This document shows positions 1 to 52,540 of a stretch of DNA of 64,000 nucleotides, in pieces. Under the pieces are notes generated by a model. It saw only the letters and a program-made list of their open reading frames with translations. It was not told the DNA's origin and searched no databases. The stretch covers positions 124,989 through 188,988 of the forward strand of contig CAVZSF010000003.1 of assembly GCA_963777895.1 (NCBI GenBank). Direction: 5' to 3'. A program made the translations under genes and the position numbers. The number at the start of each line of letters is the position of its first letter. Within the stretch, counting starts at the first letter, position 1. The stretch is from an uncultured Thermoleophilia bacterium. Lineage in GTDB: Bacteria; Actinomycetota; Thermoleophilia; UBA2241.

Positions 1-2831
1 CCATGTGCAGGCCGCGGGCCGCGTTGCCCATGTTGTCGCCCAGGTCGATCGACATCGCCATGCGGAAGTCGACTTCCGCCGCCTCCATGTCGCCGATGCG
101 TGCGGCCACCGCCCCGTACATCGCCGGCGAGAGCGACGAACCGTGGCTCGTGATCGGCTCGTAGTAGCGGTAGTTGGCCGCCATCGTCTCCTTGTCGATC
201 TCGTTGGACAGCACGTAGCAGAGCATCACCGCATCGGCCTGTTTCACCACCTTGGACCGCAGCGTGACCTCGCGGCCCAAGAGCAGGTCGGCGGCCATGG
301 GCCGCGGCCGCAGCTTCTCGGGCGGGACGTCGTCGAGGCCGTGGAAGCCGGCGAACTGTTCGAAGACCTGGGTCGCCGGGTCCATGCCGTCCACGAGGTT
401 GTCGGCCACCTCGCGCCAGCCCGCCAGCTCCCGGGCGGTCACCTTGAGACGTTCGCGCAAGCGTGCCGCCGCGCGCCGATCAGTCGCCTCGAGCCAGCGC
501 AGCGCCTCGATGCCGTGCCGGATGTTCCAGCGCGCCAGGCCGTTCGTATAGGCGTTGTCGTCGACGCCCTCGTGATACTCGTCCGGACCCACGACCATCC
601 TGATGTGGTAGCGGCCCTCGGCGTCGCGTGACGAGCGCGACGCCCAGAACCGCCCCGTTTCCAATAGCAGCTCCACGCCCATGCTCTTCATGAACTCGTC
701 GTCGCCGGTGACCTTCCAGTACTCCCACGCCGCCCAAGCCACGTCGGCCGAGATGTGGTGCTCGAGCAGACCGGAGAGGATGGGGATGATCTCCCCGTCT
801 GGCCCGTAGCCGTAGGGCGGCGTCGTCTCGACGCCCCTGTCCGCCGACTCCCAAGGGAAGAGGGCGCCCTTGTGGCCCATCTGCCGGGCCTTCTCGCGCG
901 CCCCCGGGAGGTTGCGGTACCGGTAGGCGAGCAACGTGCGCGCCGTCTCAGGATGCGAGTACATGAAGAACGGCAGCACGAAGATCTCGGTGTCCCAGAA
1001 GACATGGAGGAAGTAGGACATCCCGCTCAGGCCGCGCGCGCCGACGGAGACGGCGTCGTTGGTGGGATGCGCCGTGCTGATGAGGTGGAAGATCGAGAAG
1101 CGCAGCGCCTGCTGCGCCTCGGCGTCGCCTTCGATGACGAGGTCGGCGTCGCGCCAGCGCTGCCGCCAGGCGGCGCGCTGGCGCCGCAGCAGCTCGTCGA
1201 AGCCGAGGCGCTCGGCCCGCTCGAGCGCGCTGCGCGCGCTCTGCACGGACGGAACGCGGCTGCGGCCGGCGGCGATGGCGGCGAACCGGTCCACCGTGGC
1301 CGGTTCGCCGGCCTCCAGCCGCCCGCCGATCACGTCGCGGGCCTGTTCCACCCGCCGCGACACCGGCGAGCCCGAGGCCGGCCTGGTCGTCACCGCCAGG
1401 ACGTGGCCGCCCCCGTTGCGCCCCTTCGAGAGGGCGACGAAGCCGGGCTGGTCGCCGAGCGTCTCGAACGTGGTCTCGCGCAGCGGTCCGCCGGCGTAGC
1501 TGACGCCGACCAGCCCTTCCCAGATGAGATGGGCGCCGGCGTCGACCGGGACGGCCTCGGCGCGGATGGCCATCAGACGCCCGGTCGTCGAGCGAGGCGA
1601 ACCGGGCGGTGCGCACCCGCAGGATGCGGTCGGCCCGGTCACGCTGCGTCCAGAAGCGGTAGACGACCCCGTCCTTCATGTCGAGCACGCGGTGCTGCTC
1701 GAGCAGCTCGCCGTTGGCGAGCGTCAGGTACATGTCGCCGGCCTTGAGGCGCAGGCCGAGCCAGTCGGGCGCCGCCACGGGCTGCCGGAAGCGCGGCTCT
1801 CCCGTGCCGTCGCCGTAGACGCCGGCGACCAGGGTCGCCGGCGTCGACACGGCCGAGCCTTCCTCCAGAGCGCCGCGCGTGCCCGTGGCCCCGTTGGCCA
1901 CCGTCAGCCACGTCTCGACCTCGCGCTCGCGGTAGGGGTCGAAGCCGTGCACCTCGAAGCGCCACGCCGCATCGCTCGTCGGTTGCGGGAACTGCTCGCG
2001 CGCTTCGCGGCCGCGGCGCTGGATCTGCTGCTCGAGGACGGCGATGAGACCGGAGGGGCCGCCGCCCAGGACGCGGACGCGCGGCGGCACATGGTCGCCG
2101 CCCTCGCCGACCGACACGAGGGCGGCGCGGCGCATGTCGGGCACGAGCAGCGCCCGTTCGGGCGTGGCCCGCCCGTTGACCAGGCCGAACTCGTGCCCGA
2201 CCAGCAGCAGATCGCGCGGGTCCCGGTCGCGGTCGGCGACGAGGCGGCGCAGGACGTAGCGCATGGCGTCCGCCTCGTCGGTGAGACCTATCTCGATGCT
2301 CTGCGACGTCCAGGAGATCGAAGGGTGCGCGAGACCGGCGTTGACGGCGAGCCGTTCGGCCACGTCCACCCAGGCCGTCGCGAGGTCGATGACGGCGTCC
2401 TCTACGCGCACCAGGCGCCGGTTCGTGCGGTACTCGATGCGGGCCGTGTGCCCTGAGTCGGCCAGATCCTGGCGGAGCTCTTCCGCCGCCGCCGTCAGCG
2501 CCGCCTCCTCGCGCTCACTCGCCTGCCGGCGCTCCAGCAGGCGGGCGCCGTTCGGGCCGACGACGTAGACCTCGGAACCCTGCGAGAGCAGCAGGAAGAG
2601 GCGGCCCTCGACACCCGGCCGCGCGCGCAACTGCCCGTCGATGCGGCGCACGTCGCCGCGCGCGACGATGGCGACGTCCACGCCGAGCGACGTGAGCCGC
2701 TCGACGGCGCTCCGCACGGCGCGCGCGGCCGCTCTCGGGCCGCTCACGGCGGTGCCCTCCCACGTGAAGGTCACCACCGCGAAGTCGCGCTCGAGGTCGC
2801 GGGGAAGGTCGTCGATGCGTCGCTGTGCCAT
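1..2831 (-). CDS. HAD-family phosphatase fused to glycoside hydrolase family 65 (trehalose-6-phosphate phosphatase OtsB1-like). 5' partial at the window edge, with an apparent frameshift near 1565-1590.
   Basis: Minus-strand translation gives an N-terminal HAD/TPP-like domain (start ATG at 2831, MAQRRIDDLPRDLERDF...) followed by a GH65 N-terminal domain (WRFEVHGFDPYREREVETWLTVANG...). After ...RFASLDD the sensible frame shifts: it continues ...RLMAIRAEAVPVDAGAHLIWEGLVGVSYAGG... and, in frame 1021 mod 3, the GH65 catalytic motif FHLISTAHPTNDAVSVGARGLSGMSYFLHVFWDTEIFVLPFFMYSHPETARTLLAYRYRNLPGAREKARQMGHKGALFPWESADRG. That frame is open to position 1. The ORF-track 1223-aa ORF is a chimera of this gene and antisense of the next. 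Confidence 0.7.
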
Positions 2832-2996
2832 GCCGGTCTGCGCTTGAGCCGCGCGCTCCTTCGCCTCGCGATAGACTTGTGGCGTCCGGCCGGGCCGACG
2901 GCCCGGAGTGTCCGGACGGTTATGGTACAGGCTCGGCTCGCAGAGAGAGCATTCCCCCTCCTCTCCGAGCCGCACGCGTAGGATGCCGCCCTGGAG

Positions 2997-4280: not shown

Positions 4281-4320
4281 CGGGCGCACGGCACGCCGTC
4301 GCGCCCGTCCGCGCGCCGTC

Positions 4321-5376: not shown

Positions 5377-6452
5377 GCACCCTCCCTGCGCCCCTCGCCG
5401 TCGCGCCCGTCACGGCGCCGCCGGCATCTCGACGTCCGTTTTGGCGCCGGCCGCTCGTCGTCGCGCTGCTCGTTTTCGTCGCCGGCGCCGCGCTGGGCGC
5501 CGCCGCCTTCACCGCCGAGCAGCGCTTCATCGTCTGGCGGCCGAACGTCTCCCGCACGGCGGATGGCTGGCACGTCACGGGCGCCTCCGGACTCCGGCCG
5601 GCGGCCCCCGCTATCGCCGGCGACCATATCGCCTGGGGTCAGGGGCTCTACACCTGCGTCATGGATCTCGGCACGGGCGAGACCCACGTCATCGGCTTCG
5701 CCGCGACGGGAACTTCCATCTGGCCGCCTTCCATGAACGGTCGCTACGTGGCCTGGATGGAGACGCCGAAGGCGTCGGGCGGCCGCGGTCTCGTCTGGAC
5801 CTACGACATCGAACGCGGCCGGCGCCTCTCCCATGGCGCCGGCGCCAATGGGGCGACGACGGCCCTGAGCGACGACCGGGTCATCTGGTACGAGGGGGGC
5901 GACGCGACCAGGGTCGTGGGCGTCGACCTCGCCTATGGCACCCGCTCCGTGCAGTCGAGCGCCGCTGATCTGGACTACCCCGTGCTCGGGGCCGGCCACC
6001 TCATCGGCTGGCTGCTCCACTCCGACGCGCGCGGCGTGCTCGCTCAGCTCAAGGACATCGCCCGGGGCACGCTCGTCGAGGTGCCGCTCGTCGCACCCGG
6101 CAGCGGGCTCACGGTGGGGGATATCCAGCTCGCCGGGAGCTGGCTGCTGTGGACGGTCCAGTCCGCGACGTCCACCACCGTGCTGGTCTACGACGCGGCA
6201 GCAGGGACGACGCGGACCGTCGTCCGTGGTGACGTCCTGATGCCGGCCACGGACGGCCGGACGGTCGTCTGGGCGACGCCCAGCGAGTCCGGCTCGGGCG
6301 CCGCCGTCCGCGGCGCGACCGCTTCGGGGGATCCCTTCATCGTCACCCGCCTCGCGACGTGGCCGTCGGCCCTTGCCATCGGCGGCGGCCGGGTAGCGTG
6401 GACGGGTGAGGACGAGAGCGGGCCCTTCCTGCAGACCGCTGACCTGCCGTGA
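5361..6452 (+). CDS. Membrane-anchored hypothetical protein with predicted beta-propeller-like repeats
   Basis: The ORF-track N-terminus (Arg-rich) is an overlap artefact. The plausible start is GTG 5361, giving VPEELSTLP…, then a single TM helix (RRPLVVALLVFVAGAALGAAAF) and repeated W/G-rich segments. No confident family assignment. Confidence 0.45.
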   Translation: MPEELSTLPAPLAVAPVTAPPASRRPFWRRPLVVALLVFVAGAALGAAAFTAEQRFIVWRPNVSRTADGWHVTGASGLRPAAPAIAGDHIAWGQGLYTCVMDLGTGETHVIGFAATGTSIWPPSMNGRYVAWMETPKASGGRGLVWTYDIERGRRLSHGAGANGATTALSDDRVIWYEGGDATRVVGVDLAYGTRSVQSSAADLDYPVLGAGHLIGWLLHSDARGVLAQLKDIARGTLVEVPLVAPGSGLTVGDIQLAGSWLLWTVQSATSTTVLVYDAAAGTTRTVVRGDVLMPATDGRTVVWATPSESGSGAAVRGATASGDPFIVTRLATWPSALAIGGGRVAWTGEDESGPFLQTADLP

Positions 6453-12836: not shown

Positions 12837-15200
12837 ATGAGTGGTCGCGTTGAGGATCCACGCCGTCCGTTGATCCTTTCGCGGCGCTGGGTCCAGGTCT
12901 CGCTGCTGGTCTTCGTACTCGGCTTCTTCGGTCTTGGCCTGGCCGGCTACCTCAACTACCGGGACGAGCCGCCGATGCCGGCGAAGGTCGTGGACGCCTC
13001 GGGCCAGACGCTCTTCACGCACGACGACGTGATCGCCGGCCAGAGGCGTCTTTCTCGGCAACGGTCTGATGCAGTACGGCAGCATCTTCGGGCACGGCGC
13101 CTACCTCGGCCCCGACTTCACGGCCGACTATCTGCACCGGCAGATCGGCTCGATGCGCGCGCGGGCGGCGGTGGGGACGGCGCCGCGGGCGCAGCCCATC
13201 CCGGCGCCGCCGCCGTGGCCGCATCCGACGGCGCCGCGGCGCAGATCGCCGCGGCCATCACCAGCGACCTCAAGACCAATCGCTACGACGCCGCCACCGA
13301 CACCCTTACGCTTCACCGCCGCCCAGACGGCCGCCTTCGACGATCTCGTGCGCTACTACACAGGCTACTTCTCGACGCCCACCACCAAGTTCGGTCTGCG
13401 TCGCGACGCCATCACCAAGGCGCAGGAGCTGCGCGACCTGACCGCCTTCTTCGCGTGGACGGCGTGGGCCGCGGCGGCCAACCGGCCCGGCAAGCAGTAC
13501 TCGTACACCAACAACTGGCCGAGCGAGACGGCGATCGGCAACACGCCGACCGCCGACGCCCTGCTGTGGAGCGCGCTCTCGCTCATCGCCCTCATCGGCG
13601 GCACCGGCCTCCTGCTCGCGCATCTTCGGGCGCTACGACTGGCTCGGCTGGCACCGGCGCGAGCAGCAGCAGCTCGACTTCCGCAGCGCCCGACGCCGTG
13701 ACGATCACGCCGGCACAGCGCGCCACCGGCTGGTTCTTCTTCGTGATGGCGCTGCTGTTCGTCCTGCAGACGCTGGTCGGCGCGCTGACGCAGCACTACC
13801 GCGCCGACCTCGCCAGCTTCTTCGGCGTCGACGTCGGCCGCCTGCTGCCCTACAACCTCTCCCGCACCTGGCACGTCCAGCTCACGATCTTCTGGGTGGC
13901 GACCTCGTTCCTCGCGGCCGGCATCTTCCTGCTGCCGCTGATCACGAGGCGCGAGCCGCAAGCGCCAGGGCCTGCTGTCGTACGCGCTGCTCGGCGCGCT
14001 CGCGGTCGTCGTCTTCGGCAGCCTGTTCGGCGAGTTCGCCGGCCAGCGCGGCTGGTTCGGCAGCCTGTGGCCATGGTTGGGCAGACCAGGGGCTCGAGTA
14101 CGTCGACCTCGGCCGCTTCTGGCAGATACTGCTCATCGTCGGCATGCTCCTCTGGGTGTTCATCGTCGTCCGCGGCCTGCGCCGCCGGCTCGCCGGCGAG
14201 AGCTTCGGCAACATGCCCTGGCTCTTCCTCTACGCCGCTCTCGCGATCCCCGCCTTCTACGCGGTCTCGCTGCTCGCCAGCCCCAGCGGTCACACCACCA
14301 TCAACGACTACTGGCGCTTCTGGATGGTGCACCTCTGGGTCGAGGACTTCCTCGAGCTGTTCACGACCGCGATGGTGGCCTACGTCTTCGTGCTGCTCGG
14401 TGTCGTCCACGAGCGCACCGCGCTGCGCGTCATCTACCTCGACATCATCATCTACTCGGTGGGCGGCGTGATCGGCACCATGCACCACCTGTACTTCTCG
14501 GGGACGCCGGCGGCGACCATGGCGCTGGGCGCGCTGTTCAGCGCCGCCGAGATCATCCCGCTCACGCTGCTCACGGTCGAAGCGTGGAGCTTCGTGCGGC
14601 TGGGGGCGCGCGAGACCGCAGGCTTCGCGCGCGCCTTCCCGCACTACTGGGCCGTCATGTTCCTCATCGCCGTGGGCTTCTGGAACTTCCTCGGCGCCGG
14701 CGTCTTCGGCTTCCTCATCAACCTGCCGATCGTGAGCTACTTCGAGATCGGCACCGGGCTGACGGCAAACCACGCGCACACCGCGATGATGGGCGTCTAC
14801 GGGATGCTCGCCGCCGGACTCGCGATCTTCTGCCTGCGCTATCTCGTGCCCGAGAAGCAGCTGGTCCGACCGCGCCGCGCGGATCTCGTTCTGGTCGCTC
14901 AACGTCGGCCTCGCCTGGATGGCGTTCGCCAGCCTCTTCCCGCTCGGCGTGCTGCAGCTCTACCACTCGGTGGCCGACGGCTACTGGCAGGCGCGCACGC
15001 TCGACTATCTGGGCAACACACGAACACGGTGCTCGAGTGGGTGCGCCTGCCCGGCGACGTGCTCTTCATCCTCGGCGGGCGCGCTGCCGCTGCTGTGGCT
15101 TGCTTTCTGGGCGATCGCCGGCCGCAAGGGCGTGGCGATCGCCGACGACTACGACGCGACGCTCTACTCCGAGCTGCCGGCGGAGGTTGCCGAGGCCTGA
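12837..15200 (+). pseudogene. norZ: Quinol-dependent nitric oxide reductase (qNOR, NorZ/NorB family, heme-copper oxidase superfamily). Full length (~788 codons) but interrupted by about 10 frameshifts.
   Basis: Conserved qNOR segments sit in alternating frames: …FTHDDVIAGQ | VFLGNGLMQYGSIFGHGAYLGPDFTADYLHRQ | …AAITSDLKTNRYDAATDTLT | FTAAQTAAFDDLVRYYTGYF… | ITPAQRATGWFFFVMALLFVLQTLVGALTQHYRADL…HVQLTIFWVATSFLAAGIFLLPLI | KRQGLLSYALLGALAVVVFGSLFGEFAGQ | …HLWVEDFLELFTT…IGTMHHLYFSG…GHHAY-type His ligands… | …LGVLQLYHSVADGYWQARTLDY. GGGGGAG RBS before ATG 12837. Ends TGA 15198-15200. Confidence 0.75.
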
Positions 15201-20050: not shown

Positions 20051-21031
20051 GTGAGGTTGGCCATGGCAACGTCTGAACATCGTCTGCGGAAGCTTGCCGG
20101 CGTCGTCGCTGCTCCCGAGTTCGTCGTCCCCTGGCTCGACCGCATCTACGACCCCATCGAGATCGACCTGGTGTTCGCGCTGGCGGATGGACCGCTCTCG
20201 CGGGCAGCGCTGGCCGAGCGTCTCGGGCTTGCGCCGGCTGACCTCGCGCCGATCGTCTCGCGGGGCTACCGTCGTGCCGTCCTGGCCGGCGACGGCGACG
20301 AGCTCGCCGCCGACACCTTCTACGAGCGCTCCGCCATGTGGGCCCGCTCCGCGGGCCGCGGCAGCGTGCCGGACGACGTCCACAAAGCGCTCGCCGACTG
20401 GTGGCTCGACGCCTACGTCGACTCGGTGCGCGATGGTCTAGCGAAGCTCCAGGGCGGGGCCCCCGAGCCCGGCGGCGACGCCGACTACGCCTACCTTCTG
20501 CTCAGCGAGGCGGAAGAGATGGTGCGCCGCGAGGAGCACGTCTACCTGTGGCGCTGCGACTGCCGCACGCTCATGCGCGCCTGCGACCAGTCCGTGGACA
20601 ACTGCCTCCGCTTCCACAACGACCGCGACGTCGGGCTCGAGATCTCGAAGGAGCTCGCCATCGACATCCTGCGCGAAGCCGACGCCGCAGGGCTCATGCA
20701 CTGCGACTACGTCGGCTTCGGTGGGCCGACCGACCCGCACGCGATCTGCAACTGCTGCACAGACTGCTGCCAGCCCCAGCTCGCGTCGCAGCGTCTGGGG
20801 GTGAGCGACGTCTGGCCCCGGCGCCGGTACCTCGCGAGCGTGTCAGCAGACGCCTGCACTCTGTGCGGCACCTGCACCGAGCGATGCCCCTTCGGCGCCC
20901 TGAGCGTCGCGGCCACCGGCGCCGACGAGAGCCTCGTCCTTGCCGAGGATGAGTGCCGCGGCTGCGGCCTGTGCGCGACGACCTGTCTGGAAGCGGCCAT
21001 CCAGATGGTGGCGCGGCCCGGCGCGGCCTGA
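20051..21031 (+). CDS. Cys-rich iron-sulfur protein with two C-terminal 4Fe-4S ferredoxin motifs. Uncharacterised family; paralog of 22834..23796.
   Basis: CDCR…C…C, CNCCTDCC, then CTLCGTCTERCP and CRGCGLCATTC (CxxCxxCxxxCP-type). Confidence 0.6.
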   Translation: MRLAMATSEHRLRKLAGVVAAPEFVVPWLDRIYDPIEIDLVFALADGPLSRAALAERLGLAPADLAPIVSRGYRRAVLAGDGDELAADTFYERSAMWARSAGRGSVPDDVHKALADWWLDAYVDSVRDGLAKLQGGAPEPGGDADYAYLLLSEAEEMVRREEHVYLWRCDCRTLMRACDQSVDNCLRFHNDRDVGLEISKELAIDILREADAAGLMHCDYVGFGGPTDPHAICNCCTDCCQPQLASQRLGVSDVWPRRRYLASVSADACTLCGTCTERCPFGALSVAATGADESLVLAEDECRGCGLCATTCLEAAIQMVARPGAA

Positions 21032-25814: not shown

Positions 25815-25986
25815 ACCCTATCGCACGATGAGGAGGTCATGGACGCGTGCTGCAACGGACCTGCGGGCGGTGCTGCGTGCGCACTGCCGGCGGCTCGTCG
25901 TTCGAGCAGCGCGAATGGGATGGCATGGACCGGTAGAGACGGAAGTCCGGGAGGTAGGGGCCGGGGGATCGCAGCGAGCGCCGGCG

Positions 25987-26061
25987 TGGTGGGCGATGTT
26001 GGATTTGAACCAACGACCCCCTGCTTGTAAGGCAGGTGCTCTTCCCCTGAGCTAATCGCCC
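25987..26061 (-). tRNA. tRNA-Val (anticodon TAC), CCA encoded
   Basis: Reverse complement: GGGCGATTAGCTCAGGGGAAGAGCACCTGCCTTACAAGCAGGGGGTCGTTGGTTCAAATCCAACATCGCCCACCA. Anticodon loop CTTACAA. Confidence 0.85.
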
Positions 26062-27144: not shown

Positions 27145-27931
27145 TTGATGCCCATCGCCGCTCAGTTCACCTACTGGAACGTGGCTGCCGCGCTCGCCCT
27201 CCTGGCGATCGCCCTTCTGCTGTCCTGGCGGCAGGGCCTCGGCGTCGAACGTGACCTCGTCGTGGCCGCCGTCCGCTCGTTCGTCCAACTCATGGCGATC
27301 GGCTACGTGATCGACCTCATTTTCGGCACGGAGCACATCGCCTACGTCCTGCTCATGGTCGTGGCCATGGTGGTCTTCGCTGCGATCACGTCCGCCCGCC
27401 GCCTGCGAGACCTGCCGCGCTCCTGGCTCGTCATGCTCCTCGCCATCGGTGGCGCCGCCGCTGCTGACGCTCGTGATGATGCTCGTCCTCGACATCATCC
27501 CGAGCACGGCGCGCTACGTGATCCCGATCGCCGGCATGGTGATCGGCAACACCATGAACGTGGCCTCGGTGACGGGGCTCCGGCTCCTGGAGGACACGCA
27601 GGCACAACGGCCACGCATCGAGGCGGCCCTGGCCCTGGGGGCCAGCCCGAGCCAGGCGACGCACGGCATCGTCCGCGGGTCGGTGCGGCTCGCGATGGTG
27701 CCGGTCATAGACAGCACGAAGACGATGGGCATCGTCTTCCTGCCCGGGGCGATGACCGGCATGATCCTCGCCGGCGCCGACCCTCTCGAGGCCGTGCGCC
27801 TGCAGGTCGTCGTGATGTACATGCTGCTGGCGGCGGTCGCCATGACGGCTTCGGCCGTCGCCCTGCTCGTCCCGCGCGAGCTCTTCACGCCGCAGCAGCA
27901 GCTGCGACGCCTGGAGAGCGAAGGGACCTGA
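27145..27931 (+). CDS. ABC transporter permease (FetB/YbbM-family iron-export permease-like), with an apparent frameshift near 27450-27460
   Basis: The N-terminal half in frame 27145 (…LLAIGG) continues in the 27449 frame (APPLLTLVMMLVLDIIPSTARYVIPIAGMVIGNTMN…). A one-base change at GGTGGCG rejoins the frames. Confidence 0.65.
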
Positions 27932-28108
27932 GAGCCTCCGAGAAGGACATTGAAAGGCGCAGGGACCGTGGGGGGCGGGACTTGGGTGCGGTTGGAGAGG
28001 ACCTTGGGCGCCGTTGGAGCAGGCTGGGCGCCACGAGCCTCAAACGAAACGGGCGGGGCGGCGCTTCCGCGCCGCCCCGCCCGTTGTCCCCTCACGGGGT
28101 TGTGGGCC

Positions 28109-29933: not shown

Positions 29934-31669
29934 TCAGAAGACGAAGTCGATGGTTGTGGCGTTCGTGAGCATGGTGGTCTGTGACTTGGTCACCTGTACC
30001 GTCCCGACGTAGGCGACCGCGGTGACCCGGTAGGAGCCATAGGGCATGGGAACGGACGCCAGCCAGATCGCCGTGCCGTTGCTCGCGATGGACTTCGCCC
30101 CCTTACTGACGTCGGGGTCCGGATCGAGATAGGTGACCGTCACGGTGGCGTTGGCGTTGTAGACGCGCACGGTCAGAGAGTAGTTCTGCGCGGTGCCAGT
30201 CGTGGCCGTCACCGCGGCGCTGGCCGCAGACGTGTTCAGCGCCCCATCGACCGCCTTGAGATAGTAGCTGCGCGGCGACGTCGACCACCCGGGGACGTCG
30301 TTGTAGCTCGTCTGTCCTGGTCCCACGGTCGCGAGCAGGCTGCCGTCCCGGTAGATCTGATAGGCGAAGACGCCCGTCACCGGTTCGCCGACCGCGCCGG
30401 ACGGATCGGAGGCAGCCGCCCAGGTGAGCCGGACGTTCGGCCCCTGCGCCGTCGCGGCAAGCGATGCAGGCGCAGTGGGCGCGGTCTTGTCGGCCGACGA
30501 GACCAGGGGTGTGAGCGCCACGACGTTGCTGTTGGCGCTGCGCAGACCGAACGTGTCGACGACCTGCACGCGATACTCATAGGCCGTGCCGGCCACGACG
30601 CCCCGGTCGATGAAGAAGGTCGACAAGGCGCCGGCGGCGGCGTACGGGTCGGTCGGCCATGTGGTGCTGCTCGCTTCCTTGCGGAAGACGTCGTAGTGGT
30701 CGATGTCGGTGTCGCTCGGGGCCGCCCACGAGAGACTTGCCCCGCCGACGCCCGCCACACCGCTGACGATCACCGTCCCCGGCGCCCCCTTGTCGAGTGC
30801 AAAGGTCAGCTGCCAGACGTTGCCTGGCTGTCCGGCGACGATGCCCAGGGTCGGACTCGGGCTTGGGGTCGGCGCGGGGGTCGGCCCGACGAGGGTGCTG
30901 CCGGTGTAGGCGACCGCGGAGAAGGTGTAGGTGCCGTCGGGTGCCCCTGCAGCCACCGTCCAGGTCGTCGTGAACACCCCGTTCACGTGCTCACTGTTGG
31001 CTGCGTTGTAGCTCACCGTGGACGTGTAGGAGCCTGTGCCGCCCACCCTGTTGATGCGGAACTCGACGCGTCCCACACGCTGGCGGTCGGCGGCGGAGAT
31101 CGTCGCCGTCAGGGTAACGGTGGTGGCCGAAGAAGCGGACGTGTGGATATAGGAGCCCTCGTGGTCTACGTCCGACGCCAGTGGCGTCACCGCGAGGTTG
31201 GTGATCTGCGGTCCGGAGTCTTGGCGCGTAATGTTCGTACGGAGCACGACGCGCCTGCCAGCCGCGGAGCCCGAGCCAAGCCAAGTCACCGTGACGGTCA
31301 CCTGCTTGTAGGCGAGCACGCCGGTCGTGCTGCCGGTCGGCTTTACCTCGGTGACGCCGTAGTCGACGGTGAAGTTCTTCGAGGCGCTGCCCACCTGCGT
31401 CGTGACGGTGGGGCCGAACTGTCCCGCTGAGAAGCTGGGGTTGTAGAGGTTCGGCGTGGAGGCCGGAGTGGCCGAGTCCGCGACGATCTCGTCGTAGTCG
31501 AGCGTCCGGATCCTCTCGAGCTTGTCCTGCGCGATGTTGACCGCAACGGTCTTGGCACGGTCCTCCGAGCCCTTGCCGGCCGCCTGCACGAACAACGGCA
31601 CCATCGCCGCGAACGCGATGCCGGCGATGACGATGGTGACGAGCAGTTCGACGATGCTGAATCCCGCAT
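29934..31669 (-). CDS. Large pilin-like protein: prepilin N-terminus plus fibronectin-III/Ig-like repeats and a Pro/Thr/Ser linker. Apparent one-base deletion in the start region.
   Basis: With a GGG->GGGG correction the N-terminus reads MRGFSIVELLVTIVIAGIAFAAMVPLF…, a canonical prepilin leader. Downstream are TPAPTPSPSPT and FN3-like segments (…WAAPSDTDIDHYDVFRK…, …TWAAASDPSG…YQIYRDGS). Confidence 0.6.
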
Positions 31670-31984
31670 GGCCTCGCCGGGAGGCCTGTTCATGCCCTGC
31701 CTCCGGATAGCGAGGGGAACGTCTCCTCGTTCTATCGGCCGCACGCCGGAGAGCATGAGCGTCCGGGCCGATTTTCGTTGCCGCCGATGGCAGCGTCGTT
31801 AAGGCTTCTCCCTAGGCTCACTTTCCCTGTGGGCTCAGTACGAGCAGATGCGTGGCGGGTCGCTCGAGTCTGGATCCGGGCTCCGGGACGGGACTAGAAC
31901 ATTCGTCTAGCTGAGGAGAGGCGCGCGGCAGCGGAGGATCTGCCGGCATGCCGGCGCGGCGCGGACGGTGCGCCGCAGGACTCG

Positions 31985-43475: not shown

Positions 43476-45261
43476 TCAGGCCTGCGTCGCGAACCCGAGC
43501 CGGGCGGCGAACTGCGCCTGGAAGTCCTTGTTCGTGGCGAGCTCGAGGAAGGAGATGCGGCGGCGCAGGCGCGCCATGCGACGGCGCGCGAGCACGTCGA
43601 TGAGGGCCATCTGGGCGCCCACCCCGGCGGCGTTGCCCACGAACAGGACGCGGTCCGTGGGCACCGGCGGCAGCAGGTCTATGTACAGCGAGTTGCCCAG
43701 GTCGAGGTAGTTGCCGAAGGCGCCGGCGACGTACACCCGATGCAGGTCGGCCACGCTCACCCCCAGGCTCTCGAGCAGCAGGGTCCAGCCTGTCGCGATC
43801 GCGCCTTTGGCCAACTGCAGGTTGCGCACGTCGTGCTGCGTGAAGACGATCTCGCCGTTGGGACCGCTGGTCAGCAGGTACTCGGACGATCCCGACTCGC
43901 CCTTGCGGACCAGCGGGTGCGACAGCATGCGTCCGCTGCGGTCCACGACGCCGCTGCGCACCAGACCGGCGAGCAGGTCGACCACGCCCGAGCCGCACAT
44001 GCCGAGCGGGGCGCCGTTCCCGATGGTCTGGATGCTCGCGGGGTGGCCGGCGGCATCGATCGTGACCTTCTCGATCGCGCCGGCGACCGCCTTCATGCCG
44101 TGGGTGATCTGGTAGCCCTCGAAGGCGGGGCCCGAGGCGCAGCTCGTCACGGTGACCTCGCCGTCGTGCACGAGGGCGATCTCGGTGTTGGTGCCGATGT
44201 CGATGGCGAGCGACGGGCGGCGGCGCGTCGCGAGCCGCGTCGCGGCGATCACGGCGAGCGCGTCCGAGCCGACGAACCCGGCGATCGGCGGCGGGAAGTA
44301 GACGCCGCCCTCGGGGTTCATGTCGATGCCGAGGTCGGCGCCGCGCACGAGCACCGGCTCGGCTGCAGCCGGCGCGTAGGGCGCGGCGCCGAGCCCCTGG
44401 GCCGGCAGGCCCAGGACCAGATGATGCATCGCCGTGTTGCCGACGACCGTCATGTCGTAGAGGTGCTTCGCCGCGATGCCCTGACGCTGATACAGGGCGG
44501 CCAGGCACTCGTTGACGCCCGACCTGGCCGCCTCCGCCAGCTCCGCGCGGTGCTCGCCCGACTGCGCGATGCGGCTCACGACGTCCTCGCCGTAGCGCAT
44601 CTGGGGGTTCTCCACGGCCTCGGAGTCGACGTGCTCGCCGCGTTCCAGGTCGAACAGGTACGTCACGATCTTCGAGGTGCCGATGTCGACCGCGGCGCCG
44701 TGGGCGACGCCCGCCGCCTCCGGCGCCTCGACATCGATCAGGCGCCGCCCGTACCGCGTGAACGTCGCGCGCCAGCCGTTGCCGCGGAGCACGTCCGGCG
44801 CCTCCCGCAGTGCCTGGTACGGGACCTCGACCCCGTGCAGCACGGCCTGCACGCGCTCGAGGTCGCTGCGGGCGTCGCCGATCACGGGCGGGTCGAGCTG
44901 CTCGGTCACGCGCGTCACCGCCGGATGGGCGGCGCCGTGCCGCAGCCGGCTCGTGGTCAGGATGCGCCTGCGTGCCGCTGGTCTCGCGCACCTCGATGCT
45001 GACACGGGAGGACACCGGCCGCGCCTGACAGGCGAGCCGCCAGCCCGTGGCGCGCAGCTTCTCCGGGACCTTGCGGATCTCGACCTCGGTCGGCTCCGTG
45101 AGCTCGCCGGCCCCGAGGCGCACGAGGCACTTGCCGCACGTGCCCCGTCCGGCGCACACGTTGGGGACGTCGATACCGACCCGCAGGAGGGCGTCCAGCA
45201 AGGTCTCGTCCTGGCCGACCTCGAGGGTCACGCCGATGGGCTCGACGAAGACTTTGGTCAC
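43476..45261 (-). CDS. Corrinoid reductive activase (RamA/RACE family: N-terminal 2Fe-2S ferredoxin domain plus ASKHA ATPase domain), with an apparent frameshift near 44900-45005
   Basis: N-terminal plant-type ferredoxin (MTKVFVEPIGVTLEVGQDETLLDALLRVGIDVPNVCAGRGTCGKCLV…) in one frame. The ASKHA/DUF4445 body (…AAVDIGTSKIV…, …AIDIGTNTEIALV…, …CGSGVVDLLAGL…) is in the adjacent frame (ORF 43476..45005). Confidence 0.7.
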
Positions 45262-45283
45262 GGCTCAGTCCTTGTCAGGTCCG

Positions 45284-46690: not shown

Positions 46691-46804
46691 CCTTCATCTC
46701 CTTCGTGGGGGCCCCCAGGCGCCCCATGGTCTACGGTCTCATGAGACGGGACGACGCCCGCCGGCGCAGCCGGGCGGGCGCGCATTCAGCGCTGCATCAG
46801 CTTA

Positions 46805-48263
46805 TTACAGACCGGCGGTCGCGATGATCCGCTGCAGGATGGCCGCACGCTCGTCGTCGAGCGGTTCCACCTCGTGCTTCGCGAGCAGCTCGGCGGCGAG
46901 GCCGGCCGCGTTGTCGGCCGCGTCGCGGCGGCCGCCCGCGACCCACGCCTCCCAGGGGGAGCGGTCAAGCAGGCGGGGGCGCCACACGTCCTTCATGTGC
47001 TGCCGCGTGTGGCGCTGTCCGAGGAAGTTCCCACAGATGTCGACCTGCTTGATGGCCTCGAGGGCCAGGGTCTCGTCGTCCACGGTGATGCCCTGCGCGA
47101 TCGTCGCCGACCAGGAGAAGAGCTCCGTGTCGGCCACGAGTTGAGCCTGCGAGTAGACGCGGCCGCCGGCAAGCGCGCCCGCGCCGCAGGCAAGGGGCAC
47201 GCCGGCAAGGGCGGCCGTGAGCGCGGCGAACGAGCCGTCGGTGGAGGCCTCCCAGTCGACGGTCTCGGCGTCGGTGCGCAGCACGTCCGCGACGGCCGGC
47301 AGCCCGGCGCGGGCGGCGAGCTGCGCGGCGGCCAGCGTGAAGAGCTGGGCGGCCGCGCCGGTCGCCGCGACGCCGGCGAGCGCCGGCCGCACGGGCACGA
47401 AGAACGCGGCTCCCGGCGCGAGCGCCTGCAGGGCGGCGTTGGCAGCCAGGGCGCGCGCGAAAAAGGACACGATGGCGGCGGTCAGGTCTGGGCCGCCGGT
47501 GACGCCGAAGGCCGGGCATGCCTGCGGAGCGGGCGCGGCCGGTACGCCGACCGGCAGGCCGGCCGCCGCGAACACGCCCGCGGCGGCGAAGGCGCCCGGT
47601 CCGGCGAACAGGGAGAGTGGCGGCCTCGCGCGCCGCTCGTCCGTCGGCGTCCCGAAGAGCCGTGGCCATGGCCACGGCGGCCTCCGCCTCCTCGACCGCG
47701 GCCGGCGTCGTGAGCAGGACATGCTTCGTCGTGGAGCCCACGGCGATCTCGATCTCGGTCAGCAGCCGCAGGCCGCGCTCGACGTCGAGCGCGCGCAACG
47801 GCGGCCCGGCGACGACGGCGACCTCGGGGAGAGCGTCGGCGAGCCGCACGGCCGCTTCGAGCTGCCCCGCGGTCGCCCGGACCGGCTGGTCCGCACCGGC
47901 GGGGAGCGCCTCCGGCGCCGGCTCGCCGCCGGCGGCCAGCAGACACGCACCGGCCGCGAGGACGACGTCCTGGGCCGCCGCGCGGGCACCCAGCAGGAAC
48001 TCCTTGGGCGCCCGCGCGGCGGCCTCTTCGGCCAGCCCACGCGGCACGGCCAGGGCGCCGGTGTCGGTGACGCGTGCGCCTGCGCCGGCCAGCGCCTCAC
48101 GCGCGCGCACGTCCGGAACGGTCACGCCCTCGGTCTCGAGCAGTGTCAGCGCGGCATCGTAGAGAAGCTCCGCGTCTTCTTGCGCGAGCACGCGCAGGGC
48201 GACGTCCGTCCGCCACGTCAGTGGGGGTCGGGGTGTGTCGATGGTGGGGGTTGTCCCGGTCAC
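46805..48263 (-). CDS. Divergent Ala-rich MttB-superfamily methyltransferase homolog, with an apparent frameshift near 47600-47720
   Basis: The N-terminal part (GGAGG-N8-GTG at 48263; …ALRVLAQEDAELLYDAALTLLETEGVTV…) is in the frame of ORF 46965..48311. The C-terminal part (…ETLALEAIKQVDICGNFLGQRHTRQHMKDVWRPRLLDRSPWEAWV…PLDDERAAILQRI…) is in ORF 46805..47722. Confidence 0.6.
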
Positions 48264-48438: not shown

Positions 48439-49560
48439 ATGAGGATCGAAGTCGACTGCGAACGTATCCGCGCCAACGCCGAAGCGGTGACGAAGCTCTG
48501 TGCACGACACGGCATCGAGGTCGCCGGCGTCACGAAGTGCTGCTGCGGCGAACCCGAGATCGGCCAAGCCATGCTCGCCGGCGGCTGCACGATGCTCGCG
48601 GATTCGCGCCTCGACAACGTCGCGCGCCTGCGCGCGGCCGGCATCGAGGCGCCCATCCTCCTGCTGCGCCTGCCGGCGATCAGCGAAGCCGCCCAGGTGG
48701 TCGAGCTCTGCGACATGAGCCTGAACAGCGAGGTCGACACGGTGAGGGCCCTGTCGGCCGCCGCCGTCGCGCGGGGCGTGGTCCACCAGGTCCTGTTCAT
48801 GGTCGACACCGGCGACCGCCGCGAGGGCGTCATGCCGGAGGAGGCCGGCGCAGCCTGCCGGCAGATCATGGATCTGCCGGGCATCGACCTCGCCGGCCTC
48901 GGCACCAGCCTCAACTGCCTCTGCGGCGTCATGCCGACCCCTGAGAACCAGCAGGAGTTCGCCGACATCGTCGAGCGGGTCGAAGCCGAGTTGGGCGTGA
49001 CCTTCCGTCTCGTGTCGGGCGGTCACACCGCCAACCTCCACCTCGTGCAGTCCGGCCAGGTGCCGGCGCGCTTCAACCACTTCCGCGTCGGCGAAGGCAT
49101 CCTCACCGGCACCGATTTCTCGACATGGGCTGAGCTGCCTATGCCGTACACCGACGCCTTCAAGGTCTACGCCGAGGTGATCGAGCTCAAGGACAAGCCC
49201 TCGGCGCCGGACGGCACCTGCGGCCCCGACGCCTTCATGGAGGTCCATGAGTGGCCCGACCTCGGCATCCGGCGTCGCGCCATCGTCGCGCTCGGCGAGA
49301 TCGACCTGCGCACCTCGAGCCTCAGGCCCATGCGCCCCGGGGTCACGGTGGTAGGAGCCTCCTCCGATCACCTCGTGCTCGACGTGACCGAGGCCGATCC
49401 CCCGGTCACACTGGGCGAGGAGCTCGGCTTCGACACGGTCTACCCGGCGGTCTCGACCTGCTGGTCCGGGTCGTGCTCGATGAAGGTGGTGCATCCCCTC
49501 ACGGCAGCGGCAGTCGTAAGAGCGGGCCGCTCCGATCTCTGCATAAGGTCGCAGCAGAGT
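48439..49560 (+). CDS. Alanine-racemase-fold PLP protein (putative amino-acid racemase, YhfX/ornithine-racemase-like). 3' end uncertain.
   Basis: GAGGAGG RBS. The N-terminal region (…GIEVAGVTKCCCGEPEIGQAMLAGGCTMLADSRL…) and overall layout resemble YhfX-like racemases. The listed frame has no stop before it overlaps the convergent MttB gene, so a frameshift or uncertain end lies near 49500-49560. Confidence 0.55.
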
Positions 49561-49562
49561 GT

Positions 49563-49599
49563 GACGGGGCGGGCGGCACCTGGTGCCGCCCGCCCCGTC
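49563..49599. terminator. 18-bp GC hairpin between convergent genes (bidirectional terminator)
   Basis: GACGGGGCGGGCGGCACC-T-GGTGCCGCCCGCCCCGTC. Confidence 0.5.
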
Positions 49600-49624
49600 T
49601 CGAGCATTCCGTCCTGCGCCACTG

Positions 49625-51081
49625 TCAGCTGCCGGCGAGCTCCCTGTCGGCGCGCGTCACGATGGCGCGCAGCTCCGCGGTCACGTCTTCCGGGAGCGGC
49701 TGCGGCTCGTAGGTCGCAAGGATCTCGTCGGCCATCTCCGTCGCCTTCTCGAGGGCGCCCTTCTTGCCCTCGCGCAGCCACACGTCGTACGGCGTGCGGT
49801 CCCAGACGGTCGGCCGCCAGATCTCCTTCATGTGCTGACGGGTGTGTCTCTCGGCCAGATACGTCCCGTTGGGGCCGACCCGCTTGATCACGTCCAGCGC
49901 CAGCGTTTCGTCGTCGACCTGCACCCCGCCGGCGACCTTCTGCACGATGCCGTAGATCTCGGTCTCCATGATCATGTGCGGGTAGCTCAGGATCTTCGAC
50001 CCGTTGAGCAGGCCGCAGCCGTTCATCATGTCGGCACACGTCATCACGCTCGCGAAGGTGCTCAGGGAGTCGTCGATGGCGGCCTGCCAGTCGGGCTCCT
50101 TGGCGCCGGTGGCCATGGTGCCCATCGCCATCGGGATGCCGTAGAAATGGGCGAGCTGGGTGGAGGCGGCGGCGAGCAGGTAGTCCTCGGGCGAGCCGCC
50201 CGTGTAGCCGCCGGTCTTGAGGTCGATCACGCTCGGGGCGCCGGCGAAGAAGCAGGGTACGCCCGGGAAGGCGAGCTGCAGCATGACGACGCCGCTGAGG
50301 GCCTCGGCGTTCTGGACGACGAGGTTGCCCGCGATCGTGGCCGGCCCCGTGCCGGCGCTGAGCGGCATCGGCATGAAGCCGCTCGCGAGGCCGTGCTCGG
50401 CGGCGACAAGGTTGGCCTCGAGGTTGGGGCCGTCGTGCGCGAGCGGGTCCACGGCGCACTGCATGAAGCTGACGATCGGGCGGCGGCGCAGCTCGTCGGT
50501 CCCGCCGACGATCGCCGCCGCCATCTCAACGAGGTAGCGCGCCGCCTTCTCGCCGACCGTCGTCACCGCCTGGTAGTGCTTGCTCGTGTTGGTGAGCACG
50601 GCCTCAGAGTCGTGGAGCGCCTTGCTCGCGGGCGGCACATCCTGCGACGTGACGACCGGCCCCCAGTAGTAGCTGACGGCCGGGAGCGCGTCGACGAAGC
50701 GGGCGGAGGTGGCGGCGTCGGCCTTGGTCGAGGGCCGCTTCTCGCCGGTGTGGTGGTCGTAGACGAACACGCCGGAGCCGTCGTTCGAGAGGTAACAGTG
50801 GCGCCGGTCGATGAGCATGTCGGCGGCCGCGTCGCGGCCGGCGAGCACGTACTCCTCCGGCGCCTGCTTGACCGCCTCCATGACGACGGCGCGCGGGAAG
50901 CGGACGACCTGCGTCGCCCTGTCGACCGCGCAGCCGCCCTTCTCGAGGACGTCCAGGGCGCGTGCGCTCGGGAAGCGCACGCCCGTCTCCTCCATCACCT
51001 CGAGCGTGGCTTCGTGGATGCGTTCGAGCTCGGACGGCGAGAGCACGTCCCAGCGGAGCTTCGGTTCGATGGGGTTGATCC
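49625..51081 (-). CDS. MttB-superfamily methyltransferase with no internal amber codon (presumed non-pyrrolysine), tandem copy B
   Basis: Start MTARINPIEPKLRWDVLSPSELERIHEATLEVMEETGV… (GAGG before ATG). C-terminal …DDETLALDVIKRVGPNGTYLAERHTRQHM…PLPEDVTAELRAIV. Confidence 0.85.
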
Positions 51082-51126
51082 TTGCAGTCATCTGGACCTC
51101 ACGATGGGTACTTGTCTGGGACGTTC

Positions 51127-52540
51127 TCAGGCGGTCGGGCGGGACGCCTCCACCTCGGCGAGGATGCGGTCGAGTCCGGCCTTCACCTCGTCGCCCAGCT
51201 CGAAGGCGCGCGGCTCGGCGCGAAGCGCCGCCACGCGCGCCCGCAGGCGGTCGACCAGGGTCGGACGACCCTTCCTCCACCCAGTGGGCGTGGCGCGAGG
51301 TGTCGAAGAGGTCGCTCTGCCAGATCCCGCGGAAGTGCTTGCGCGTGTACGGCCGGGCCAGGTGGCTGCCGCCCGGCCCCACCGCCGCGATCTCTTCGAG
51401 GGCGAGCGCGTCGTCGTCGACCGGCAGCGGCGCCATGAACGCCTTGGCGTACCCGATGAGCTCGTTGCCGAAGAGGATCGACTCGTAGCTGCTCTGCAGC
51501 CCTGCCTCGAGGTAGCCCACGTCGTGGAGCAGCGTCGCCCGCGAGAGCAGGCCGGTGACGGCGGTGATCGCGGCCTCGGCGCTCCACTGCCCGTCGAGCG
51601 ACTTGCTGTCGCTGTGCGCGGCGTAGCTGAAGCTCGGCAGGTCGTACCAGCGGGCGAGGTCGGTCTGCGCCTGATAGCCCTGGATCGGGCCGGCGGACGC
51701 GTACACCTCGTTCATCGTGCGCATGTTCATGGCGCCGACGCCGACACCCCACACGAAGGGAGCGCCGGGCTTGACCGCCTGGCTCAGCACGAGGCCCGCC
51801 AGGGTCTCGGCGTTGGCGACCACGATGACGGCCGCGATGCTGGCCGGCGCCGTCGTGCCCGCGTTCGGCGCCGGCGCCCAGATCAGCGGGATGTCGAGCT
51901 CGGCGCACGCCATGACCTTGCTGGCGCCGTCCTCGTCGAACATGAGCGGCGGCACGGGCATGGCGTAGATGCCGAAGCTGCCCGCCTCTCCAGCCAGGGC
52001 GCACATCTCCTTCATCCGGCCCAGGATGTGGCCGTCGCGCGGCGCCACCAGGAGCGGCTTGCGCGTGCCGCGCACCATGGCGTCCACCTGCGCCAGGTCG
52101 TCGATCGCCTGGGGCACGTCCTCCGGCAGTCCCATGCTCATCACGAAGTCGATGTTAGGCAGCTTCTCGCAGAGCGCCGCCTGGCCCTCGACGTCGGCCT
52201 TCACGACGCGGCGGCGCTCACGCGTGTCGGGGTCGCAGATATAGAGCACGTCGGAGCCGGTGCCGCAGTAGGTATGACGGGCGTCCAGCACGAGCGGCTC
52301 GGTCGTGCCGCCGCGCGGCTTCAGCTGACAGCCCCGCGACGCGCTCTTGAGGGCCGCCTCGACGAGGTCGGCCGGGATGCGCACGCGTGTCCCGTCGACG
52401 CGCGCGCCGGCGCGCGCGAAGGTCTCGACCGCCGGCGCATAGCGCACCTCGATGCCCGTCTCGGCGAGCACCTGCAGGGTGGCCTCGTGCGCCCGGCGAC
52501 AGGCGTCGTCGCCCCAGATGGTCAGGCGAGCTTCGTTCAC
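51127..52540 (-). CDS. MttB-superfamily methyltransferase with no internal amber codon (presumed non-pyrrolysine), tandem copy A. Apparent one-base insertion in the GGG run at 51269-51271.
   Basis: MNEARLTIWGDDACRRAHEATLQVLAETGIEV… through …DDALALEEIAAVGPGGSHLARPYTRKHF…HAHWVEEG, then a frame change to …RPTLVDRLRARVAALRAEPRAFELGDEVKAGLDRILAEVEA*, a plausible family C-terminus. In the unshifted frame the ORF reads through into copy B. Confidence 0.75.

What the first reader, a model, noticed from the sequence alone, without database searches (positions are those of the whole stretch)
1565..51275. Recurrent one-base frameshifts in otherwise intact genes, several at G/C homopolymers
Besides qNOR, apparent single-base indels disrupt these genes:
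- the GH65 gene (~1575),
- the FetB permease (~27455, GGTGGCG),
- the large pilin start (~31660, ATGCGGGATTC, expected ATGCGGGGATTC),
- the RACE gene (~44950),
- the Ala-rich MttB homolog (~47650),
- MttB copy A (51269-51271, extra G in a GGG run).

In each case conserved protein sequence continues in the adjacent frame. The pattern is characteristic of homopolymer indel errors, such as those from nanopore-only assemblies. It could also reflect a genome undergoing pseudogenisation. The distinction matters for every functional inference here, including whether the tandem MttB copy A is functional.
Basis: seen in the sequence. Interest (0 to 1): 0.5.

Follow-up and report, generated by a model that had tools for sequence, protein, structure and literature searches.

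The report
Frameshifts are long-read assembly errors
The one-base frameshifts are really in the sequence, but almost all look like consensus errors of a long-read-only metagenome assembly, not decaying genes, so the affected genes should be treated as intact.

Summary
All six listed genes, plus qNOR, do carry one-base frame breaks. None lies in a G/C homopolymer. The pilin lesion is a missing base at 31683, 23 nt upstream of the proposed site. The MttB-A lesion is an extra T (gene strand) at 51265, not an extra G.

A 99%-identical contig from another assembly (ERZ25039545:contig_53806) has every one of these genes intact except MttB-A. It carries its own one-base breaks in genes that are intact here.

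Repairing the window's indels gives full-length proteins with no internal stops, including qNOR (10 indels, 8 amino-acid differences). pN/pS stays at 0-0.21, as in intact neighbours. Frame-breaking events are mostly insertions, 30 of 40 are outside any base run, and all unambiguous insertions sit next to the wobble base.

In the same gene neighbourhood, Nanopore-only MAG loci show 1.03 frameshifts per 10 kb against 0.06 in loci whose contig names indicate short-read assemblers.

Verdict: assembly artefacts, but not homopolymer-type. Only the MttB-A insertion, shared by both contigs, stays open (about 65% artefact).

Two further lesions were missed: the Alr-like gene (49506) and an MttB C-terminus (58040). 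A conserved in-frame TAG at 53807 is a genuine, separate feature.

The parts
1..2975 (-). GH65 glycoside hydrolase/phosphorylase gene, which runs off the window's left end. It is broken by an extra C at 1578 (+ strand; gene strand GC[G]T).
   Evidence: Pfam GH65N 3-131 lies upstream of the break and GH65m downstream. The sister contig has an intact 1091-aa gene. The indel was located. The repaired protein has no stops.
12837..15200 (+). qNOR nitric-oxide reductase gene with 10 one-base indels: 13043, 13170, 13313, 13620, 13687, 13962, 14082, 14860, 15018 and 15076 (8 insertions, 2 deletions).
   Evidence: The sister contig has an intact 785-aa NorB_cyt_c-like + COX1 gene. Indels were located. 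The repaired protein is 785 aa with 0 stops and 8 aa differences. pN/pS is 0.12.
27148..27931 (+). FetB/UPF0014 permease gene, broken by an extra T at 27465 (GC[T]G).
   Evidence: Pfam UPF0014 matches 2-94, then 99-242. The sister gene is 260 aa and intact. The indel was located.
29934..31693 (-). Large type IV pilin-like gene. The true ATG is at 31693-31691. One base (A of codon 4, CAC) is missing at 31683, so the leader peptide is out of frame with GFSIVELLV.
   Evidence: Alignment with the sister and translation give MNRHSRRGHAGFSMVELLV. No in-frame start codon lies upstream of the N-methyl motif. The sister gene matches N_methyl.
43476..45261 (-). RACE/RACo corrinoid activase gene, broken by one extra base at 44969-44973 inside a small cluster of substitutions.
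   Evidence: Fer2 lies upstream and RACo_linker/middle/C-ter downstream. It is intact at 592-594 aa in the sister and in L082. Orthologous ORFs from short-read-named loci L003 and L007 split at 44963/44974. 26 loci support the break.
46805..48263 (-). Ala-rich MttB-family gene, broken by an extra C at 47643 (gene strand GA[C]G).
   Evidence: Pfam MTTB matches 26-210, then 265-493. It is intact at 485 aa in the sister and in L082. The indel was located.
48439..49887 (+). An extra base at 49506, three codons before the true stop, extends it to 482 aa instead of 359-360.
   Evidence: The sister gene is 359 aa and the L082 gene 360 aa. The indel was located. The C-terminal tails were compared.
51127..52540 (-). 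MttB copy A. An extra T at 51265 (gene strand TCG[T]CCG) shifts the last 43 codons. The ORF then reads on into copy B, giving a 971-aa fusion.
   Evidence: Alignment with five orthologs shows a single extra base in the window and the sister only. Removing it gives 470 aa, the length of more than 100 orthologs at 100% coverage. The 971-aa product is called in both contigs.
49625..51091 (-). MttB copy B, intact at 488 aa. It is fused to copy A only through the lesion at 51265.
   Evidence: It has the same length as the separate 488-aa gene in L082.
57993..59378 (-). An extra base at 58040 (plus one missing at 58016, after the true stop) changes the last 6 residues and extends the ORF.
   Evidence: The sister gene is 452 aa and ends ...ELQALACISS*. 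The window ends ...ELQAARLHIFIALHVRSRS*.

Best explanation
The window comes from a high-GC Thermoleophilia contig of a long-read-only metagenome assembly. By inference this is Nanopore, Flye plus one round of Medaka, of the Microflora Danica type.

Its recurrent one-base frame breaks are consensus errors left in or introduced during assembly and polishing. They are not mutations of the organism.

The errors are mostly single G/C/T insertions placed next to the third codon position. They lie outside homopolymers and are concentrated in stretches where co-occurring strains differ. This points to low coverage combined with microdiversity confusing the consensus.

The genes concerned (GH65, qNOR, FetB, pilin, RACE, Ala-rich MttB, Alr-like, one MttB C-terminus) should be read as intact.

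Shown here: the lesions, their absence from a 99%-identical assembly, the selection pattern and the link to technology. Inferred: the platform of this particular contig and the exact step that generates the errors.
For: 1. A contig from another assembly, 98-99.4% identical over the whole window, has intact GH65 (1091 aa), qNOR (785 aa), FetB (260 aa), RACE (594 aa), Ala-MttB (485 aa) and Alr-like (359 aa) genes.

2. That contig has its own one-base breaks where the window is intact: MTTB 21399-22841, the GGDEF gene, MoeA, minor pilins and the pilin body.

3. Repairing only the indels yields full-length proteins with 0 internal stops. For qNOR, 10 fixes leave 8 amino-acid differences.

4. pN/pS of the repaired broken genes is 0-0.21, the same range as 12 intact control genes. 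Ten frameshifts beside 22 synonymous and 8 non-synonymous substitutions is not neutral decay.

5. Frame-breaking events across both contigs comprise about 26 insertions and 7 deletions.

6. 30 of 40 one-base differences lie in no base run.

7. All 20-21 unambiguously placed insertions touch the wobble base (simple null p = 3e-4, context-corrected p = 1.6e-4).

8. Breaks concentrate in genes with pS above 0.03 (Fisher p = 0.013) and near mismatches (p = 0.007-0.02).

9. In the same syntenic neighbourhood, 21 Nanopore-only MFD MAG loci carry 42 well-supported frameshifts in 408 kb. Nine loci with short-read assembler names carry 1 in 167 kb (p = 8e-6).

10. MFD MAGs are Nanopore-only, assembled with Flye and polished with one Medaka round (PMC12313526). 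R10.4 needs about 40x coverage for near-finished consensus (PMC9262707).
Against: - No reads are available, so no lesion is directly shown to be absent from the DNA.
- The window's own record could not be retrieved, so its platform is inferred from relatives and contig naming.
- The MttB-A insertion is shared by both 99%-identical contigs. Independent random errors do not predict that.
- The simplest micro-mechanism, both alleles of a strain SNP being emitted, does not fit well. The inserted-base/wobble pairs are 16 transversions to 4 transitions, against 171:235 among real mismatches.
- Some SNP-rich stretches have no indels at all.
Confidence: 0.85

Rival explanations
1. Classic Nanopore homopolymer-length errors. 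Bases are lost or gained within G or C runs during basecalling.
For: A minority of differences between the two contigs do sit in short runs, for example GGGGG[C]CCCC at 46711, CGGG[G] at 6299 and CAC[G]GGGG at 28096. Homopolymer indels are the best known Nanopore consensus error (PMC9262707).
Against: None of the lesions in the listed genes lies in a run of 3 or more bases. 30 of 40 one-base differences are in run length 1. The window has no run longer than 6, and none of its 14 six-base runs differs. Errors are biased towards insertions, not deletions.
Confidence: 0.05
2. Genuine pseudogenisation. The organism is losing these genes through real frameshift mutations.
For: Nine of about 55 genes are disrupted. 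qNOR has many lesions, as an old pseudogene would. One lesion (MttB-A) is shared by two related contigs.
Against: - A 99%-identical strain has all these genes intact, while being broken elsewhere.
- There are no nonsense codons or larger deletions after repair.
- pN/pS is 0-0.21, as in intact genes.
- The indel-to-substitution ratio in qNOR is 10:30.
- Insertions outnumber deletions and avoid repeats. By my own knowledge, this is the opposite of the usual bacterial mutational bias.
- Wobble adjacency has no mutational rationale.
- The lesion rate follows the sequencing platform.
Confidence: 0.04
3. Only the MttB-A lesion is real. A recent +1 insertion in the common ancestor of the two strains truncated copy A and fused it in frame to copy B, giving a 971-aa product.
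For: The same extra base is present in both contigs, which otherwise differ at 15 positions in this gene pair and appear to come from different assemblies. About one real pseudogene per 55 genes is not unusual (my own estimate).
Against: - The lesion has the same signature as the artefacts: a single insertion, no repeat context, next to the wobble base.
- The shifted tail is still conserved in its original frame, with its stop codon at the ancestral position. Differences from L082 are mostly at third positions.
- The ortholog family is almost uniformly 470 aa, including this tail.
- If errors arise at sites polymorphic in both samples, a fraction of a coincidence is expected by chance (my estimate, 0.05-0.2).
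Confidence: 0.35
4. Programmed ribosomal frameshifting or another recoding mechanism restores the reading frames.
For: The cluster does contain one genuine recoding signal, a conserved in-frame TAG in an MttB gene.
Against: None of the frameshift sites is conserved in orthologs, not even in the 99%-identical contig. No shared slippery motif is present. qNOR would need ten events.
Confidence: 0.01

Closest known systems
Frameshift (indel) consensus errors in Nanopore-only genome and metagenome assemblies, the truncated-protein problem measured by IDEEL
   Same: One-base indels split otherwise conserved ORFs. The rate is about 1-3 per 10 kb. They are absent from related short-read assemblies and present at different sites in each long-read assembly of the same clade.
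   Different: The textbook form is length miscalling, mostly deletions, in homopolymers. Here 75% of events are outside any run, insertions dominate, and they sit beside the wobble base.
Genuine bacterial pseudogenes from reductive evolution (for example Mycobacterium leprae, recent host-restricted pathogens)
   Same: Multiple disrupted ORFs whose conserved sequence continues in another frame.
   Different: There are no nonsense mutations, no relaxed selection, and the genes are intact in a 99%-identical strain. The lesion spectrum is opposite to a deletion bias.
Programmed +1/-1 ribosomal frameshifting (prfB, dnaX, IS elements)
   Same: The protein continues in an adjacent frame.
   Different: There is no conservation of the site among orthologs and no slippery sequence or stimulatory element. 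Ten sites fall in one gene.
Pyrrolysine-type in-frame UAG in trimethylamine methyltransferase MttB
   Same: It is also an apparent ORF disruption in this same gene cluster (53807-53809).
   Different: It is a stop codon, not a frameshift, and it is conserved as TAG at the identical position in all 18 orthologs examined, including those from short-read-named loci. This is how a genuine feature behaves, in contrast to the frameshifts.

Membership tests
Nanopore homopolymer indel error | The indel lies within a homopolymer run (typically 4-5 bases or more) and changes its length. | tested here: not met
   The listed lesions are at run length 1 (one at length 2). 30 of 40 one-base differences are in no run. 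None of the 14 six-base runs differs.
Nanopore homopolymer indel error | Deletions predominate. | tested here: not met
   About 26 insertions against 7 deletions among frame-breaking events in the two contigs.
Long-read-only assembly consensus artefact (general) | The lesion is absent from an independent assembly of the same species or strain. | tested here: met
   contig_53806 (99% identical) is intact at all window-specific lesions. The exception is MttB-A, which is shared.
Long-read-only assembly consensus artefact (general) | Lesion frequency depends on the sequencing platform, not the lineage. | tested here: met
   1.03 per 10 kb in 21 MFD Nanopore loci against 0.06 per 10 kb in 9 short-read-named loci of the same neighbourhood, p = 8e-6. 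Platform was assigned from contig-name conventions and PMC12313526.
Long-read-only assembly consensus artefact (general) | The majority of raw reads, or independent short reads, do not support the indel. | not testable with these tools
   No reads are available. Exact look-ups of the repaired proteins found no independent copy. The nearest other MttB-A homolog is 89% identical.
Long-read-only assembly consensus artefact (general) | The window itself derives from a long-read-only assembly. | tested here: inconclusive
   The window's proteins are recorded on one 332,283-bp contig (NCBI + ENA), but the record could not be fetched. The closest contigs carry Flye-style names, and the nearest GTDB relatives are MFD Nanopore MAGs.
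Genuine pseudogene | Relaxed selection (pN/pS approaching 1) after the inactivating lesion. | tested here: not met
   pN/pS is 0-0.21 in repaired broken genes, the same as in intact controls.
Genuine pseudogene | The lesion is inherited, that is, shared by close relatives. | tested here: not met
   Not shared for GH65, qNOR, FetB, pilin, RACE, Ala-MttB, Alr-like or MttB452. Shared only for MttB-A.
Genuine pseudogene | A mixed lesion spectrum (nonsense codons, larger deletions) in multiply hit genes. | tested here: not met
   qNOR has 10 one-base indels and no stop codon after repair.
Programmed ribosomal frameshift | The shift site and frame structure are conserved in orthologs. | tested here: not met
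   Orthologs in L003, L005, L007, L008, L082 and the sister contig are single ORFs.

The most novel reading that the evidence does not exclude
The +1 insertion at 51265, shared by the window and the 99%-identical contig, is real. These Thermoleophilia strains would then carry a recent natural fusion or inactivation of tandem MttB-family methyltransferases (a 971-aa A::B product), inside a cluster that also encodes a UAG (pyrrolysine-type) MttB. All other frameshifts remain artefacts.
Probability: 0.3. Interest if true: 0.3.

Novelty: not a real feature. Interest (0 to 1): 0.15.

Why it matters
It matters mainly as quality control. About one gene in six in this window is split, truncated or fused in the deposited sequence. 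The public protein collection already holds the spurious 971-aa MttB 'fusion' and the gene fragments.

Functional inferences should use the repaired reading frames. This applies to qNOR and nitric-oxide reduction, the RACE activase, the MttB paralogs, FetB, GH65 and the pilin.

The error signature is single insertions beside wobble positions, outside homopolymers, enriched where strains differ. Homopolymer-aware checks would therefore miss these errors. The signature could help flag similar errors in other high-GC long-read MAGs.

The conserved in-frame TAG shows how a genuine interruption behaves by comparison.

Tried and rejected
- Exact-protein look-ups of the KamA-like gene (two candidate starts) and of an ABC ATPase did not retrieve the window's own record. 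The source sample and platform therefore remain inferred.
- Exact look-ups of the repaired FetB, RACE, Ala-MttB, qNOR, MttB-A and MttB-B proteins found no independent copy. A homolog search with repaired MttB-A found nothing closer than 89% identity. No third vote on the shared lesion is available. A metagenome DNA scan was therefore not spent.
- Deciding which contig is broken by ORF length failed. At 70% GC, shifted frames stay open, as in the GGDEF gene (2124 vs 2109 nt). GC3-phase continuity and outgroup homology were used instead.
- The micro-mechanism 'both alleles of a strain SNP are emitted side by side' was tested. Wobble adjacency and enrichment in divergent genes fit it. The inserted/wobble base pairs do not: 16 transversions to 4 transitions, against 171:235 for real mismatches. 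By my reading of the codon contexts, four of six cases in two-fold or unique codons would be non-synonymous. It is kept only as a partial explanation.
- The break at 59400-59490 that I first took for qNOR is just a gene boundary between a YbaK-like gene and an MttB gene. qNOR is at 12837-15200.
- Two one-base differences at 6299/6304 and two at 29899/29914 could not be assigned to either contig.
Full report
**What the window is**

The sequence is 70% GC. The coding frame can therefore be read from third-position GC content. The closest genomes in the species-representative collection are Thermoleophilia (Actinomycetota) MAGs at 77-82% protein identity. Many of them are Microflora Danica (MFD) MAGs.

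The window's own proteins are on record on a single 332,283-bp contig held by NCBI and ENA. That record could not be fetched.

A contig from another assembly could be fetched in four overlapping pieces (L085, L083, L084, L081). This is ena:ERZ25039545:contig_53806, 326,213 bp. It is 97.7-99.4% identical to the window over its full length. I call it the sister contig. A second contig of that assembly (contig_42841, L082) is 76-89% identical where it aligns.

**Checking the observation**

- Pfam profile coordinates run on across each break.
- ORFs from relatives in loci with short-read assembler names (L003, L007) align to the window as two adjacent pieces in different frames. RACE, for example, breaks between 44963 and 44974.
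- Base-level alignment to the sister contig pins the lesions:

| Gene | Lesion |
|---|---|
| GH65 | extra C at 1578 |
| FetB | extra T at 27465 |
| RACE | extra base at 44969-44973 |
| Ala-rich MttB | extra C at 47643 |
| qNOR | ten one-base indels from 13043 to 15076 |
| Pilin | one base missing at 31683 |
| MttB copy A | extra T on the gene strand at 51265 |

- The true pilin start is the ATG at 31693. It follows a GGAGG motif and encodes MNRHSRRGHAG|FSIVELLV.
- The MttB-A lesion is TCG[T]CCG, not an extra G in GGG.
- None of the lesions is in a G/C homopolymer.

Two further lesions were not listed.

- An extra base at 49506 sits three codons before the stop of the alanine-racemase-like gene. 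It extends that gene from 359-360 aa to 482 aa.
- An extra base at 58040 alters the last residues of another MttB gene.

**Real mutations or artefacts**

The sister contig has intact copies of these genes:

- GH65, 1091 aa
- qNOR, 785 aa
- FetB, 260 aa
- RACE, 594 aa
- Ala-MttB, 485 aa
- Alr-like, 359 aa

Conversely, the sister carries one-base breaks where the window is intact. These affect the MTTB gene at 21399-22841 (three to four extra bases), the GGDEF gene, MoeA, minor pilins and the pilin body.

Repairing only the frame-breaking indels in the window gives full-length proteins with no internal stop. For qNOR, ten repairs leave just eight amino-acid differences from the sister.

Substitutions between the two contigs in the repaired genes are overwhelmingly synonymous. 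pN/pS is 0-0.21, the same range as twelve intact control genes. qNOR has 10 indels beside 30 substitutions, of which 22 are synonymous. A gene that had drifted long enough to collect ten frameshifts would not look like this.

**The lesion spectrum**

- Over both contigs, frame-breaking events comprise about 26 insertions and 7 deletions.
- 30 of 40 one-base differences involve a base that is in no run.
- All 20-21 insertions that can be placed unambiguously lie directly beside the wobble base, and none lies between codon positions 1 and 2. The simple null gives p = 3e-4. A null corrected for the flanking dinucleotide gives p = 1.6e-4.
- Breaks are concentrated in genes with higher synonymous divergence between the contigs (Fisher p = 0.013).
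- They lie closer to mismatches than random positions do (p = 0.007-0.02).

Neither replication slippage nor random decay predicts this pattern. A consensus process troubled by mixed strains does predict it qualitatively.

The simplest version of that idea fits only in part. That version has both alleles of a SNP written side by side. The implied allele pairs are 16 transversions to 4 transitions, against 171:235 among the real mismatches. I therefore commit to 'consensus artefact linked to local strain variation and probably low coverage'. The exact generating step stays open.

**Technology control**

I used ORFs from all related loci as mutual queries. I counted frame switches supported by at least five other loci in the same syntenic neighbourhood.

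- 21 MFD loci: 42 events in 408 kb, or 1.03 per 10 kb.
- Nine loci with MEGAHIT, SPAdes or IDBA-style contig names: 1 event in 167 kb, or 0.06 per 10 kb.
- The difference has p = 8e-6.
- The window has about 1.1 per 10 kb in the comparable stretch.

MFD MAGs are Nanopore-only, assembled with Flye and polished with one round of Medaka (PMC12313526). The same group showed that R10.4 needs roughly 40-fold coverage for near-finished consensus (PMC9262707).

The assignment of the short-read loci to a platform rests on contig-name conventions. That the window itself is of MFD type is inferred from its relatives.

**The exception, MttB copy A**

The window and the sister share the extra T at 51265. 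Both give a 971-aa ORF that runs from copy A through the intergenic spacer into copy B. L082 and four other relatives lack the base and have separate genes of 470 and 488 aa.

Removing the base restores a 470-aa protein that matches more than 100 orthologs end to end, nearly all of them exactly 470 aa. The shifted tail keeps its ancestral stop codon and differs from L082 mostly at third positions. The lesion is therefore either very recent or not real.

Its signature matches the artefacts: a single insertion, no repeat, beside the wobble base. But independent errors should rarely coincide. No closer relative or short-read copy exists in the collections searched. I put it at roughly 65% artefact and 35% real. 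It needs reads.

**Comparison with known categories**

- This is the familiar problem of frameshift errors in long-read-only assemblies, but not in its textbook homopolymer form. That defining feature was tested and not met.
- It is not pseudogenisation. There is no relaxed selection, no inheritance and no mixed lesion spectrum.
- It is not programmed frameshifting. The sites are not conserved in orthologs.

One interruption in the same cluster behaves as a genuine feature should. The MttB gene at 52820-54316 has an in-frame TAG at 53807-53809. TAG is conserved at the identical position in all 18 orthologs examined, including short-read-named loci. Paralogs have His, Val, Cys, Ser or Ala there.

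**Verdict**

The affected genes should be read as intact. The MttB-A/B 'fusion' should be treated as unresolved. Interest is low apart from the quality-control lesson and the unusual error signature.

Noticed in passing
window 52820-54316 (+), TAG at 53807-53809: An MttB-family gene has an in-frame amber codon (…PSFVAGL-TAG-ADSKLGDAQTGHEK…). From memory, this is the position of pyrrolysine in true trimethylamine methyltransferases. TAG is conserved at the same site in all 18 orthologs examined, including short-read-named MAG loci. Paralogs have H, V, C, S or A there. No tRNA-Pyl was found in the window or in 32 related loci. A 2022 survey found PylRS in only two Actinobacteria (PMC9630628). 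No paper in the library links pyrrolysine to Thermoleophilia.
   Followed up: partly
window 29950-31600 (-), body of the large pilin gene: This stretch is extremely divergent between two contigs that are otherwise 99% identical. The 30-32 kb bin holds 227 mismatches and 62 alignment gaps. It looks like a hypervariable pilin domain, with some consensus errors mixed in. The sister copy is split into 169 + 366 aa.
   Followed up: no
L004, L005, L013, L021, L023, L026, L028, L032, L035, L037, L038 and other MFD loci; also L081-L084, L082: Frameshifted genes are a property of the whole set of long-read MAG loci of this clade, at about 1 well-supported event per 10 kb. They occur at different sites in each assembly. 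Protein fragments and spurious fusions from these contigs are already in the public protein collection.
   Followed up: yes
window 37467-59378: Dense methyl-transfer/amine cluster. It holds at least five MttB-family genes (one of the TAG type), a RACE/RACo activase, a KamA-like radical-SAM aminomutase (LAM_C), a BKACE enzyme, a class III aminotransferase, an Alr-like PLP enzyme, four tandem EamA transporters and an amino-acid-type ABC transporter. The substrate is not identified.
   Followed up: no
window 25840-25980, upstream of tRNA-Val (25987-26061): A short intergenic stretch with about ten small indels and many substitutions between the two 99%-identical contigs. It looks like real hypervariability rather than single-base error.
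   Followed up: no
window 6299-6304 and 29899-29914: Pairs of one-base differences between the contigs, near the 3' end of a 368-aa hypothetical gene and near a pilin-operon gene boundary. It could not be decided which contig is correct.
   Followed up: partly
window 20051-21031 (+): The ferredoxin-like (Fer4) gene is 326 aa in the window but only 201 aa in the sister contig, which has an extra C at the position matching 20369. GC3 phase indicates that the sister is the broken copy.
   Followed up: partly
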